From the UHGV virus genome UHGV-1734115: DNA of 14,013 bases; one strand, given 5' to 3'. Shown here piece after piece: positions 12,001-14,013 of this stretch (position 1 is the first letter of the stretch; each line of letters begins with the position of its first letter). The DNA is from a virus. Position numbers: made by a program.

Positions 12001-14013
12001 GGCCTGACGCTTTTCGATGAACTGGAGCGTAAATCGTTAACGGCGTCTGTTGGCGGTTTTGCTTATATCGCTGAGATCGCAAAGAACACGCCAAGCGCAG
12101 CAAACATCGTTGCCTATGCAATGCAGGTTCGTGAAACCGCAATGGAACGCTACGCCATCAACCGCATGACTGAAGCGACGGAATTGCTCTATTCCCGCAA
12201 CGGAATGACTGCGACGCAGAAGTACGAAGCTATTCAGGCGATTTTTACGCAACTGACAGACCATGCAAAAACCGGATCGCGTCGCGGCCTTCGCTCATTT
12301 GGTGAGGTCATGGAAGACTGGGTTAGCGACCTTGAGAAGCGATTTGACCCGTCAGGCGAACAACGAGGAATGAGCACAGGGATCCCATCGCTGGACAGGA
12401 TGCTGTCACCGAAAGGTCTGGTGAAAGGCTCTCTGTTTGTCATTGGCGCTCGCCCTAAGATGGGGAAAACGACGCTATACAGCCAGATGGCAATCAACTG
12501 CGCAGTGCATGAGAAAAAGCCCGCTCTGATGTTCAGCCTTGAAATGCCCGGTGACCAGATACTGGAAAAACTGGTAGGACAGAAGTCAGGTGTTAACCCG
12601 AATATTTTTTACCTTCCGGCGACAAATGACGCTGATGACGGCTATCAGGGTGATTACGATGGTGACTTCAACAGGGCGATCGAAACAGCCAATCGCTTGA
12701 GTGAAATCGACCTGCTTTACATCGACGACACGCCGGGATTATCTCTGGCTCAAATCGTCAGCGAAAGTCGTCGAATCAAGCGAGAAAAAGGATGTGTTGG
12801 CATGATTCTGGTCGATTACCTGACACTAATGACTGCTGAGAAGGCCGATCGCAACGACCTTGCTTACGGCATGATCACCAAAGGACTGAAGAACCTTGCC
12901 AAAGAGCTTGATTGCGTTGTTGTGCTTCTGACGCAGCTTAACCGCGCACTGGAAAGCAGAACCAATAAACGCCCATTACCAAGTGACTCACGAGATACAG
13001 GGCAGATTGAACAGGATTGCGATTATTGGGTGGGGATCCATCGTGAAGGTGCTTTTGATGACAGTGTTCCACCTGGTGAAACCGAACTAATCCTTCGTCT
13101 CAATCGTCATGGCAATACCGGCACGGTGTATTGCATTCAGGCAAATGGCGCTATTTATGACACAGACCAACAGTCCGCTGAAATGCGCCGCCGTGAACGC
13201 GAGGAACCGCAATCCAAGAAGAAAGGAGGATTCTGATGACCATCTACATCACTGAGCTGATAGCAGGGTTATCGTTACTAATGGTTCTTACTGTATATAT
13301 TATTAAGTATATTCTTTATGCGAATAAAAAAACTAATTGATCACGATGAGCTTCTGTCAACATTATCATATGACTCAGAAACAGGAATATTTAAATGGCT
13401 AAAAACAAATTCAGTAGTAAGAGTAAAAGGTAGTATTGCTGGAGGTGTTAGTGGTGGTTATATATGCATTAGCATAAATAATGTTTTGTATTATGCGCAT
13501 AGACTTGCTTGGTTCTATGTATACAAAAAATGGCCTCCTAAGTTTATTGATCATGTAAATGGGAACAGACTTGACAATAGGATTTCAAATCTAAGACTGG
13601 CAACAGAGGAGCAGAATGCAAGAAACATTGTAGGGAATAGGTTAAACACATCCGGTGCGATTGGAGTGTCTTGGGATAAGACAACTGGCAGGTGGAAGTC
13701 TTATGTTGGTTATAAAAATAAGACAATATCGTTAGGGTATTTCGATAGCAAAGAAGATGCAGCATTCATAGCAGCACTAGCAAGAAAGAAACTATATGGA
13801 ACTTATGCGAGTAAAGCACTTAATTGCGAGCATGAGCTTTTATCTCAATTTAATAATGATGAGGATAAACTTGCGGAATATCTTAAGGAAAAATCTAAAA
13901 GGACTCGAAAGCGTGTTAAAAAAAGATAAAGGCCTGCTGGTAATCGCAGGCCTTTTTATTGTGCACAGAAAACCCCCAGCTAGGCTGGGGGTTCCGGAAA
14001 GCTTTCAGCTTTA

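What the first reader, a model, noticed from the sequence alone, without database searches (positions are those of the whole stretch)
13236..13992. AT-rich HNH-AP2 endonuclease moron plus a translationally coupled 34-aa membrane peptide after the helicase
Seen: the helicase stop overlaps the ATG of a 34-aa hydrophobic ORF that has a strong SD (AAGGAGGA); an AT-rich 203-aa HNH/AP2-type endonuclease follows, bracketed downstream by convergent hairpin terminators. Base composition contrasts sharply with the neighbouring helicase gene, suggesting recent horizontal insertion (homing-endonuclease-like). The small peptide could be a membrane-active factor or simply a chance ORF.
Basis: partly seen in the sequence, partly recalled or inferred. 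Interest (0 to 1): 0.45.

Follow-up and report, generated by a model that had tools for sequence, protein, structure and literature searches.

The report
Homing-type endonuclease gene splitting phage ninA
A 665-base, AT-rich gene for an HNH-AP2 (homing-type) endonuclease has landed inside the tiny ninA gene of an HK022-like phage, just in front of the classic tR2 terminator; it is a known, already annotated selfish element, and the '34-aa membrane peptide' is only the stump of ninA reading into the insert.

Summary
The described features are all present. The window is about 99% identical to phage HK022. The 203-aa ORF (13318-13929) is an intact HNH_3 + AP2 endonuclease, already annotated in GenBank as an HNH/homing endonuclease.

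Comparison with about 123 empty and 33 filled sites fixes the insert at 13268-13932 (665 nt, with a 3-nt AGG ambiguity, 34% GC). It lies inside the 26-codon ninA ORF, at the 5' foot of the lambdoid tR2 terminator.

- **The 34-aa ORF** is ninA's start site and first 11 codons, followed by 23 codons of read-through into the insert. A read-through that long has a chance probability of about 0.1.
- **The two terminators** are not part of the cassette. The first is backbone tR2. The second is the left-end hairpin of an IS200C copy inserted right after the tR2 T-run (from 13961).
- **The insert** has no promoter of its own, so it is not a moron in the strict sense.
- **Distribution:** it is a near-clonal block (at least 98% identity) at the same nucleotide, behind at least 6 unrelated upstream genes. 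It occurs in 126 of 5,426 E. coli genomes and 19 phage records.

The best reading is a free-standing homing endonuclease gene. Homing itself is inferred, not shown. The finding is ordinary and already known, and the anatomy is now clearer.

The parts
11785..13236 (+). Replicative helicase gene (HK022 gene P type, DnaB-like). This is upstream context and not part of the insert.
   Evidence: Pfam DnaB 3.5e-31 and DnaB_C 3e-60. Annotated 'gene P protein' in HK022.
13222..13230 (+). Shine-Dalgarno sequence AAAGGAGGA serving the ninA start. It belongs to the helicase 3' end and is also present at empty sites.
   Evidence: Sequence. The same 17-mer precedes ninA in 23 empty loci. An SD core lies 4-10 nt upstream of the ninA ATG in 6 of 7 unrelated upstream contexts, against a 5.5% background, P = 2e-7.
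13236..13267 (+). 5' remnant of ninA: the ATG plus 32 nt, left of the insertion point. It carries a G at 13263 (position -5) that is typical of filled sites.
   Evidence: Identical to the start of ninA in lambda and mEp234 apart from the -5 position and a synonymous CTA->CTG change at 13259. G at -5 is seen in 33 of 33 filled sites and 4 of 123 empty sites.
13236..13340 (+). Chimeric 34-codon ORF (ninA'): 11 ninA codons followed by 23 codons of read-through into the insert. It ends 20 nt past the HNH start codon, in the frame one base behind the HNH frame.
   Evidence: ORF list. The PHROG NinA family matches residues 1-12 only. Chance of the read-through is about 0.1. It is interrupted by ISEc8 in phage 1717.
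13268..13932 (+). The inserted block: 665 nt, 34% GC. The boundaries can be shifted by up to 3 nt because AGG occurs at both junctions. It has no terminal repeats.
   Evidence: Filled and empty sites compared. In the near-isogenic pair L070/L038 the two flank alignments overlap by 3 nt. Repeats checked and GC.
13318..13929 (+). HNH_3 + AP2 endonuclease gene (203 aa). All family-invariant residues are present, and there is a basic C-terminal tail.
   Evidence: Pfam. phrog_99 at 3e-72. Invariant residues HRLAW 61-65, D78-H79, N87, N91, N100 and N103. AF2 pLDDT 87, with fold hits to I-HmuI (1u3e) and to AP2 domains.
13326..13332 (+). Run of seven A's in the overlap between ninA' and the HNH gene. 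It is a mutable homopolymer.
   Evidence: One relative (L020) has an extra A here, which separates the HNH start codon from the rest of the gene.
13928..13960 (+). Lambdoid tR2 intrinsic terminator. It belongs to the backbone and is the 3' part of ninA. The stem is AAAGGCCTGC/GCAGGCCTTT followed by a T-run. The HNH stop codon TAA (13927-13929) overlaps the foot of the stem.
   Evidence: Identical hairpin in lambda between ren and ninB. Annotated 'tR2: terminator' or 'ninA: terminator' in phages Lahn2 and P22. Called by the scan on both strands. The position relative to the ninA AUG agrees with PMC4824070.
13961..14013 (+). Left end of an IS200C (IS200/IS605 family) copy inserted directly after the tR2 T-run. 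It includes a perfect 10-bp hairpin at 13971-13993. The window ends inside the element.
   Evidence: The same sequence continues into the annotated IS200C tnpA gene at two other loci. The alignment shows that the shared sequence begins at GTGCACAG. Hairpin found.

Best explanation
This is a free-standing homing-type endonuclease gene (HNH_3 catalytic domain plus an AP2 DNA-binding domain). It has been inserted as a 665-nt AT-rich block into the 81-nt ninA mini-gene of an HK022-like lambdoid phage, between ninA codon 11 and the stem of the tR2 terminator.

Shown:
- The exact insertion site.
- Presence or absence of the block in otherwise about 97% identical phages.
- An intact catalytic motif.
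- Near-clonal identity of the block across unrelated phage backbones.
- Linkage of a flanking A->G change to the block.

Inferred:
1. The gene has no promoter, so it is transcribed from the early-right (pR) operon.
2. Ribosomes load at the conserved ninA start, which is coupled to the upstream gene. They read 34 codons and stop 20 nt past the HNH AUG. This may help initiation on an AUG that has no Shine-Dalgarno sequence.
3. The enzyme nicks or cuts the uninterrupted ninA-tR2 sequence of a co-resident lambdoid phage or prophage. The break is repaired from the insert-bearing copy through the short conserved arms (32 bp on the left, about 48 bp on the right), which copies the gene in.
4. Insertion splits the target, so carriers are immune to cutting.
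5. tR2 is left intact. The HNH stop codon sits at the foot of its stem, so the terminator stays within reach of translating ribosomes, as it was inside ninA.
For: **Identity and domains**
- The window is 99.1% identical to HK022.
- HNH_3 at 8e-16 and AP2 at 32.6 bits. phrog_99 at 3e-72.
- All family-invariant residues are kept.
- The AF2 model (pLDDT 87) matches the nicking homing endonuclease I-HmuI and AP2 domains.
- HNH + AP2 is a recognised family of homing endonuclease genes (PMC10448857, citing Magnani 2004).

**Insertion**
- Empty ninA sites in mEp234 and lambda read ...ATAACAGG|CCTGCTGG... The window reads ...ATAGCAGG|[665 nt]|CCTGCTGG....
- L070 (empty) and L038 (filled) are 97.3% and 97.4% identical on the two flanks, with a 3-nt junction overlap.
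- The insert sits at the same nucleotide in every filled locus. It is 665 nt in every complete copy except L020 (666 nt). It lies behind at least 6 unrelated upstream genes and before at least 7 downstream sequences.

**Distribution**
- 19 phage records carry it at 98-99% identity, with nothing intermediate. About 396 phage records carry the site.
- 126 of 5,426 E. coli genomes carry it.

**Composition and selection**
- GC is 34%, lower than every other 665-nt span in the window.
- Among 13 haplotypes, 9 codons vary synonymously and 7 vary by amino acid. Of 33 copies with a readable left junction and 725 nt of sequence, 31 are collinear with an intact HNH ORF. L020 is frameshifted and L009 is a recombinant.

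**Linked marker**
- G at -5 is present in 33 of 33 filled sites and 4 of 123 empty sites.

**Expression context**
- No plus-strand promoter-like site.
- tR2 is almost fully repressed when a translated ORF stops within a few bp of it (PMC4824070).
Against: - No cleavage activity, target site or super-Mendelian inheritance has been shown for this enzyme. I found no paper on it.
- ninA-tR2 is itself a conserved linker at which lambdoid modules are shuffled. Ordinary single crossovers in the 32-bp or 48-bp flanks, or inside the 725-bp shared block, could produce the same variety of contexts and the same linkage of the -5 G without any nuclease.
- The insert is rare: about 5% of phage records that have the site, about 2% of E. 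coli genomes, and none of the roughly 85 Salmonella phage records with the site. An efficient homing element might be expected to be commoner.
- Translational coupling to the HNH start is unsupported by RNA structure (z = -0.03). It cannot be essential, because ISEc8 breaks the chain in phage 1717.
Confidence: 0.7

Rival explanations
1. The block is an ordinary accessory nin-region gene that is shuffled passively. It entered ninA once by illegitimate recombination. Since then it has moved between lambdoid phages only through general or Red-type homologous recombination at the conserved ninA and tR2 flanks. The nuclease serves the phage in some other way, for example in recombination, host or competitor DNA damage, or exclusion of co-infecting phages, and does not promote its own spread.
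For: - ninA-tR2 is conserved at 92-100% in about 396 phage records while both neighbours vary. It is therefore a natural crossover point.
- The recombinant L009 shows that crossovers occur even inside the HNH gene.
- Prevalence is low, and the insert is absent from Salmonella phages that carry the site.
- A specialist paper cautions that HNH gene roles in lambdoid phages cannot be read from position alone (PMC12315714).
Against: - The HNH_3 + AP2 architecture is the one described for homing endonuclease genes.
- The gene interrupts a conserved sequence at a single nucleotide, and the interruption splits that conserved 80-bp element. This is the classical arrangement that gives a homing element immunity to its own enzyme.
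- At least 98% identity of the block across three phage genera implies recent, rapid spread.
Confidence: 0.22
2. One reading: a moron (a self-contained promoter-gene-terminator unit), plus a separate, translationally coupled gene for a 34-aa membrane-active peptide.
For: - The composition break is typical of morons.
- The peptide is hydrophobic (GRAVY 1.0) and has a strong, coupled start site.
- The ninA start site is under selection, so the peptide is probably made.
Against: - There is no plus-strand promoter-like site.
- The terminator is backbone tR2, which is present without the insert.
- The insert lies inside a gene, not between genes.
- Only residues 1-12 of the peptide match NinA, and the remainder is compatible with chance read-through (P about 0.1).
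- The insert-derived part of the ORF shows no variation to test.
- The ORF is split by ISEc8 in the deposited complete genomes of phage 1717 and F349.
Confidence: 0.05
3. It is a packaging-associated HNH protein of the HK97 gp74 type, which works with terminase at cos.
For: HK022 and HK97-like phages are known to use HNH proteins in packaging (Kala et al. 2014, cited in PMC12315714).
Against: - The gene lies in the early-right operon between the replication and nin genes, not next to terminase.
- It is absent from about 95% of phage records with this site, including close relatives.
- Its architecture is HNH_3 + AP2.
Confidence: 0.02

Closest known systems
Phage HK022 genes HK022_56 / HK022_57 (AF069308 32354-33047; earlier protein NP_597900 'putative endonuclease'), and the same gene in Stx phages PA28, SH2026Stx1, 1717 and Stx2a_WGPS4/6
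   Same: The sequence is 98-99% identical over the whole block and lies in the same position after the replication gene. The records annotate it as 'HNH endonuclease', 'homing endonuclease' or 'putative endonuclease'.
   Different: Nothing of substance differs. In this window an IS200C copy follows tR2 instead of the HK022 nin genes. None of the 5,426 complete E. coli genomes or the phage records shows that exact combination.
HNH-AP2 homing endonuclease family (Magnani et al. 2004; 'IPA-HNH' HEGs of Barth et al. 2023), with I-HmuI (PDB 1u3e) as the structural reference for the HNH module
   Same: An N-terminal HNH_3 module with the DH...N...N motif and a C-terminal AP2 domain. The gene is free-standing, AT-rich and sporadically distributed in phages.
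   Different: Sequence identity to any other member is at most about 50%, apart from the recombinant P0004. It has an extra basic C-terminal tail of about 40 aa. No activity or target has been determined. I-HmuI is intron-encoded, whereas this gene is free-standing.
Free-standing homing endonuclease genes of T4-like phages (seg and mob genes) that sit between or inside conserved genes and drive marker exclusion
   Same: Presence or absence at a fixed site between conserved flanks, linkage of nearby markers to the element, and dependence on the host operon for transcription.
   Different: The target here would be an 80-bp mini-gene and terminator rather than a long essential gene. The conserved homology arms can be as short as 32 bp and about 48 bp. 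This one is in temperate phages. Homing has not been demonstrated.
Lambda ninA / tR2
   Same: The flanks of the insert are the two halves of the lambda ninA-tR2 element. The start codon overlaps the stop of the upstream gene, and the hairpin and T-run are identical to lambda's.
   Different: The ninA reading frame is broken. Ribosomes starting at ninA no longer cross tR2. The HNH reading frame now ends at the foot of the stem, and the insert adds two A-T pairs to the stem and a minus-strand T-run.

Membership tests
HNH-AP2 homing endonuclease genes | HNH (beta-beta-alpha-metal) nuclease domain with the catalytic His and the metal-binding Asn residues | tested here: met
   Pfam HNH_3 at 8e-16 over the full profile. 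D78-H79, N87, N91 and N100 are invariant across 15 family members. The fold matches I-HmuI 1u3e with probability 1.0 and rmsd 3.7 A over 106 columns.
HNH-AP2 homing endonuclease genes | C-terminal AP2 DNA-binding domain | tested here: met
   Pfam AP2 at 1e-07 and 32.6 bits, marginally below the 33.3 cut-off. PF00847 is precomputed for the cluster representative. The model has a three-stranded sheet plus a helix, and its top PDB hits are AP2 domains 7et4 and 7wq5.
HNH-AP2 homing endonuclease genes | Presence/absence polymorphism at one fixed site in otherwise homologous genomes | tested here: met
   The junction is the same in all filled loci. There are 123 empty sites. The L070/L038 pair has 97% identical flanks.
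HNH-AP2 homing endonuclease genes | Co-conversion of flanking markers with the element | tested here: inconclusive
   G at -5 is found in 33 of 33 filled sites and 4 of 123 empty sites. Simple linkage after a single insertion into a G-type allele would give the same pattern.
HNH-AP2 homing endonuclease genes | Site-specific cleavage of the element-free allele and nuclease-dependent over-transmission | not testable with these tools
   This needs an in vitro cleavage assay and phage crosses. No published data were found.
Moron (Juhala et al. 2000 sense) | Own promoter upstream of the inserted gene | tested here: not met
   The consensus scan finds no plus-strand promoter-like site in 13000-14013. 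The three minus-strand hits are no more than the number expected by chance. This is a consensus scan only, so a weak or atypical promoter is not excluded.
Moron (Juhala et al. 2000 sense) | Own terminator, and insertion between two genes that are adjacent in relatives | tested here: not met
   The terminator is tR2, which is present at empty sites and in lambda. The insert lies inside ninA, not between genes.
NinA (phrog_5907) | Full-length match to the 26-27 aa NinA peptide | tested here: not met
   Lambda NinA matches profile positions 1-26 of 27 at 1.6e-19. The 34-aa ORF matches only positions 1-12, at 4e-4.
Lambdoid tR2 intrinsic terminator | Hairpin and T-run identical to lambda tR2, located about 30 nt after the ninA AUG in the empty state | tested here: met
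   Lambda 40567-40647 carries the identical hairpin. It is annotated tR2 in Lahn2 and P22. The position agrees with PMC4824070. The scan calls it a terminator.
IS200C (IS200/IS605 family) | Left-end sequence with a subterminal hairpin that continues into tnpA | tested here: inconclusive
   Window 13961-14013 is identical, except for its final base, to the sequence that runs into annotated IS200C tnpA at two loci. The window ends before tnpA, so whether this copy is complete cannot be seen.
Packaging-associated HNH (HK97 gp74 type) | Gene adjacent to the terminase genes and conserved in all close relatives | tested here: not met
   It is located between the replication and nin genes, and it is absent from near-isogenic relatives.

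The most novel reading that the evidence does not exclude
ninA may not matter as a peptide. It could instead be a leader-type mini-ORF whose translation through tR2 gates read-through into the nin and Q genes. Its start site is kept under selection behind seven unrelated upstream genes. On this reading the endonuclease gene has specialised on that ribosome-gated terminator as its homing site. It replaces ninA's gating role with its own reading frame, which ends exactly at the foot of the tR2 stem. Expression of the selfish gene and early-to-late read-through would then be coupled. The short conserved arms (32 bp and about 48 bp) would be enough for copying because lambdoid phages carry Red-type recombinases.
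Probability: 0.15. Interest if true: 0.55.

Novelty: already known. Interest (0 to 1): 0.25.

Why it matters
The gene has been in GenBank since the HK022 genome and is already labelled an HNH or homing endonuclease, so no new kind of system is involved. The work adds a clearer anatomy:

- The insert sits at a single nucleotide inside ninA, at the foot of tR2.
- The hypothetical 34-aa protein annotated in several phage records (HK022_56, SH2026Stx1_00028) is a truncated ninA fused to insert sequence.
- The two downstream hairpins belong to the backbone and to an IS200 copy.

If the homing inference were confirmed, this would be a convenient model for homing in temperate lambdoid phages. It offers very short homology arms, a well-studied terminator as the target, and natural filled and empty partners. 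It would also bear on how nuclease genes mark exchange boundaries in Stx-phage mosaics.

Tried and rejected
- **Own promoter.** My by-eye candidate, TTACTA-17-TATTAT, fails the scan criteria. No plus-strand site was found.
- **RNA structure that could gate the HNH start.** The fold of 13200-13380 is no better than shuffled sequence (z = -0.03).
- **Selection on the insert-derived part of the small ORF.** There are no variable sites in 13268-13317 among 13 haplotypes. About 1.6 would be expected, so the test has no power.
- **Intermediate-divergence relatives that might show other insertion sites.**
  - DNA search: nothing between 98% and about 80% identity.
  - Protein search: the only hit between about 54% and 89% identity is P0004 at 62%, which proved to be a recombinant.
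  - Species-representative genomes gave only one E. coli contig.
- **Defence-system membership.** PADLOC gave only a weak 'homing endonuclease' hit.
- **Terminal repeats or a target-site duplication, as a transposon would have.** None beyond the 3-nt AGG.
- **Literature on this specific gene.** Four searches found nothing. Magnani et al. 2004 could not be opened.
- **Second hairpin as a group II intron or other IS end.** I considered this before the IS200C annotation settled the matter.
- **A +1 frameshift on the A7 run that would fuse NinA' to HNH.** There is no evidence beyond the existence of the run, so I left it as speculation.
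Full report
**1. What is in the sequence**

The DnaB-type helicase ORF (11785-13236; Pfam DnaB and DnaB_C) ends in TGA at 13234-13236. That stop overlaps the ATG of a 34-codon ORF at 13236-13340. A strong Shine-Dalgarno sequence, AAAGGAGGA, lies at 13222-13230.

A 203-codon ORF follows at 13318-13929. It overlaps the small ORF by 23 nt, in the frame one base ahead. It matches Pfam HNH_3 (8e-16) and AP2 (32.6 bits against a cut-off of 33.3). It also matches phrog_99 'HNH endonuclease' at 3e-72.

GC content falls from 50.6% in the helicase gene to 34.0%. 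That is lower than every other 665-nt span in the window (mean 45.6%, sd 3.9%). Third-position GC drops from 0.53 to 0.26.

Two hairpins follow, at 13928-13955 and 13971-13993.

**2. Where the window comes from, and the exact insertion**

The region is 99.1% identical to phage HK022 (AF069308 32218-33078). There the two ORFs are annotated HK022_56 and HK022_57, both 'hypothetical protein'. Other records call the larger one 'HNH endonuclease', 'homing endonuclease' or 'putative endonuclease'.

Many relatives match only the two ends of my query. In one of them, mEp234, the helicase stop overlaps the ATG of a 26-codon ORF annotated NinA. Its sequence is ATGACCATCTACATCACTGAGCTAATAACAGG|CCTGCTGGTAATCGCAGGCCTTTTTATTTGGGGG.... 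Lambda has the same element between ren and ninB.

In the window the same two halves are separated...GCTGATAGCAGG|GTTATCG...GATAAAGG|CCTGCTGGTAATCGCAGGCCTTTTTATT. The insert is therefore 13268-13932, 665 nt. AGG ends both junctions, which leaves a 3-nt ambiguity. There are no terminal repeats.

I fetched 34 other filled loci.
- Every complete copy is 665 nt, except L020 at 666 nt (an extra A). All sit at the same nucleotide.
- A near-isogenic pair shows the polymorphism directly. L070 (empty) and L038 (filled, with an HNH gene identical to the window's) are 97.3% identical over 1,710 nt on the left. They are 97.4% identical over 271 nt on the right. The two alignments overlap by exactly 3 nt.

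**3. The 34-aa ORF**

Its start codon, its overlap with the upstream stop codon and its first 11 codons are ninA. Lambda NinA matches phrog_5907 over its full length (1.6e-19). The 34-aa peptide matches that family only over residues 1-12.

The other 23 codons are read-through into the insert. A run of that length without a stop has a probability of 0.09-0.12, both in the insert's other frames and in shuffled sequence. The length of the ORF is therefore not evidence for a gene. No site in the insert-derived, non-HNH part varies among 13 haplotypes. Only about 1.6 variable sites would be expected, so selection cannot be tested.

In Stx2 phage 1717 (L006) and in L034, an ISEc8 copy splits the small ORF, with an 8-bp duplication GGTTATCG. 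Stx2a_F349 matches from the same position and probably carries it too.

The ninA start site itself is clearly maintained. The ATG follows the stop of seven unrelated upstream sequences. Six of the seven carry an SD core 4-10 nt upstream, against a background rate of 5.5% (P = 2e-7). An experimental paper also treated this as a working initiation site (PMC4824070).

The peptide is therefore probably synthesised. It is best described as a truncated ninA and not as a cassette gene.

**4. The two hairpins**

*First hairpin.* This is lambda-type tR2. Its sequence is identical to lambda's. It is annotated 'tR2: terminator' in phage Lahn2 and 'ninA: terminator' in P22. It sits 30 bp after the ninA AUG, as described in PMC4824070. 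It belongs to the backbone and is present at all 123 empty sites.

The insertion leaves the hairpin intact. It adds two A-T pairs to the stem and a minus-strand T-run, so the scan calls it a terminator on both strands.

*Second hairpin.* This is the left end of an IS200C copy. From 13961 onward the window is identical, except for its final base, to sequence that runs into the annotated IS200C tnpA gene at two other loci. One of those loci is a lambda-like prophage with an empty ninA (L007). The other is the yiaY terminator (L008). In each case the IS starts directly after the terminator's T-run. A terminator-like signal upstream of IS200/IS605 elements is already reported (PMC13548323).

The HNH gene is therefore not 'bracketed' by terminators of its own.

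**5. The endonuclease**

In an alignment with 14 homologues, all invariant columns are present in the window protein: HRLAW 61-65, D78-H79, N87, R88, N91-L92-R93, N100 and N103.

An AlphaFold model (mean pLDDT 87.3) finds plant AP2 domains (7et4, 7wq5) and the nicking homing endonuclease I-HmuI (1u3e, probability 1.0) as its best solved-structure matches. The E-values are modest, as expected for a two-domain query. A sequence search of the PDB gave the same two hits weakly.

The family is large, with 1,788 hits. Typical members are 160-180 aa with HNH_3 + AP2. The window protein has an extra basic tail of about 40 aa.

HNH + AP2 is a recognised family of homing endonuclease genes (PMC10448857, citing Magnani et al. 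2004).

Variation within the clone gives 9 synonymous and 7 amino-acid-changing variable codons. This is a rough sign of purifying selection. One copy, L020, is frameshifted in the A7 run at 13326-13332.

**6. Distribution**

- The 665-nt block occurs in 19 phage records, including RefSeq/GenBank duplicates, at 98-99% identity over its full length. There is nothing intermediate.
- The carriers span Shamshuipovirus (HK022), Traversvirus and Pankowvirus.
- The ninA-tR2 site occurs in about 396 phage records. About 85 of these are Salmonella phages, and none of them carries the insert.
- In complete E. coli genomes the insert is present in 126 of 5,426, always at 95% identity or more.
- The filled loci lie behind at least 6 unrelated upstream genes: HK022-type helicase, ren, an Stx-phage DnaB, a Toprim primase-helicase, and two others. 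At least 7 different downstream sequences follow them.
- A G at position -5 (13263) is present in 33 of 33 filled sites but in only 4 of 123 empty sites.
- One metagenomic phage (L009) is a recombinant. The ninA 5' end and the first ~270 nt of the insert are identical to the window. The sequence then switches, within the conserved HRLAW region, to a different, GC-richer HNH-AP2 gene that runs straight into rusA without tR2.

**7. How it most likely works**

*Shown.* An intact HNH-AP2 gene has been inserted at a single nucleotide inside ninA. It is polymorphic in otherwise near-identical phages and nearly clonal across unrelated backbones.

*Inferred.*
- The enzyme nicks or cuts the uninterrupted ninA-tR2 element of a co-resident lambdoid genome. 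Repair from the filled copy then carries the gene in, together with nearby markers such as the -5 G.
- The insertion splits the 80-bp conserved element, which would make carriers immune.
- Where the neighbouring genes differ, the conserved arms are only 32 bp and about 48 bp. From general knowledge, that is the range used by Red-type recombination.
- The gene has no promoter-like site, so it must ride on pR transcription.
- Its AUG has no SD. The ninA' frame delivers ribosomes to within 20 nt of it, so termination-reinitiation coupling is plausible. This is untested, and RNA folding gives no support.
- The HNH stop codon (13927-13929) sits at the foot of the tR2 stem. [quoted passage not shown] It reached about 0.9 efficiency only beyond 27-30 nt. 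The insertion therefore probably keeps tR2 sensitive to ribosomes, as it was inside ninA.

**8. Rivals**

The main alternative is passive shuffling. Because ninA-tR2 is itself a conserved linker, single crossovers could generate the observed contexts and the marker linkage without any nuclease. The low prevalence of the insert is also easier to explain that way. I cannot distinguish the two explanations with sequence data alone.

The moron and membrane-peptide reading fails on the promoter, the terminator and the origin of the peptide. A packaging HNH fails on location and on dispensability.

**9. Novelty and verdict**

The gene is already deposited and annotated, and its family is known. What this work adds is the exact anatomy of the insertion.
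- The insert splits ninA at the foot of tR2.
- The small 'hypothetical protein' is a chimeric remnant of ninA.
- The second hairpin belongs to IS200C.

This is an ordinary finding that is now better explained. Interest is low to moderate, mainly as a possible model for homing between temperate phages.

Noticed in passing
window 13961-14013; L007 3560-4140; L008 3040-3630: An IS200C copy begins immediately after the tR2 T-run (TTTTTATT|GTGCACAG...). In another genome the same IS begins immediately after the yiaY terminator's T-run. IS200C therefore seems to insert at the 3' edge of intrinsic terminators. The final 89 bases of the window match up to 35 places per E. coli genome. A terminator signal upstream of IS200/IS605 elements is already reported (PMC13548323).
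   Followed up: partly
L007 (E. coli HCP4S3_I4, NZ_CM149872 1332188-1339275): A lambda-like prophage remnant has ren, an empty ninA-tR2 and then IS200C, followed directly by the host gene ybdG. The junction is 98.9% identical to the window's. The prophage appears to be truncated at the IS. The window's own combination (HNH insert plus IS200C after tR2) was not found in any complete E. coli genome or phage record searched.
   Followed up: partly
L009 3920-4516 (Logan SRR10380363 contig 203): A recombinant endonuclease gene. The ninA 5' end and the first ~270 nt of the insert are identical to the window. The sequence then switches, within the conserved HRLAW motif, to a different, GC-richer HNH-AP2 gene that overlaps rusA, and tR2 is missing. 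This is an example of two related nuclease genes acting as a crossover point.
   Followed up: partly
L006 59-2500 (Stx2 phage 1717) and L034: ISEc8 is inserted into the chimeric small ORF, 7 nt inside the HNH insert, with an 8-bp duplication GGTTATCG. This cuts the HNH gene off from the upstream translational chain.
   Followed up: partly
window 13326-13332; L020 about 2490-2500: A run of seven A's lies in the overlap of ninA' and the HNH gene. L020 has eight, which separates the HNH start codon from the rest of the ORF. The HNH frame is +1 relative to ninA', so slippage on this run could in principle fuse the two. There is no evidence that it does.
   Followed up: no
ninA start in 123 empty and 33 filled loci (window 13222-13238): The ninA ATG is the exact mosaic boundary behind seven unrelated upstream genes. 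Six of the seven keep a Shine-Dalgarno core 4-10 nt upstream (P = 2e-7). This suggests that translation of this mini-ORF, which contains tR2, is itself selected.
   Followed up: yes
L070, L124, L129, L147: Four empty ninA sites carry the 'filled-type' G at -5. L070 also carries the window's CTG variant and is near-isogenic with a filled locus. These are either the allele in which the insert first landed or precise losses of the insert.
   Followed up: partly
window 779-868 (-) and 6126-6184 (-): Two Rfam matches above the gathering score: sRNA-Xcc1 (62.9 bits) and the lambda cIII thermoregulator element (88.5 bits).
   Followed up: no
window 7801-8250: This is a second low-GC patch (0.35-0.40) with strong positive GC skew. 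It is the only other marked compositional dip in the window and could be another acquired segment.
   Followed up: no
E. coli NZ_AP026087.1 1253019-1254145 (hit H38): The helicase-HNH region matches in two pieces that span 1,127 bp for 861 query bases. This implies about 266 bp of extra DNA, annotated as a hypothetical protein, somewhere in this region.
   Followed up: no
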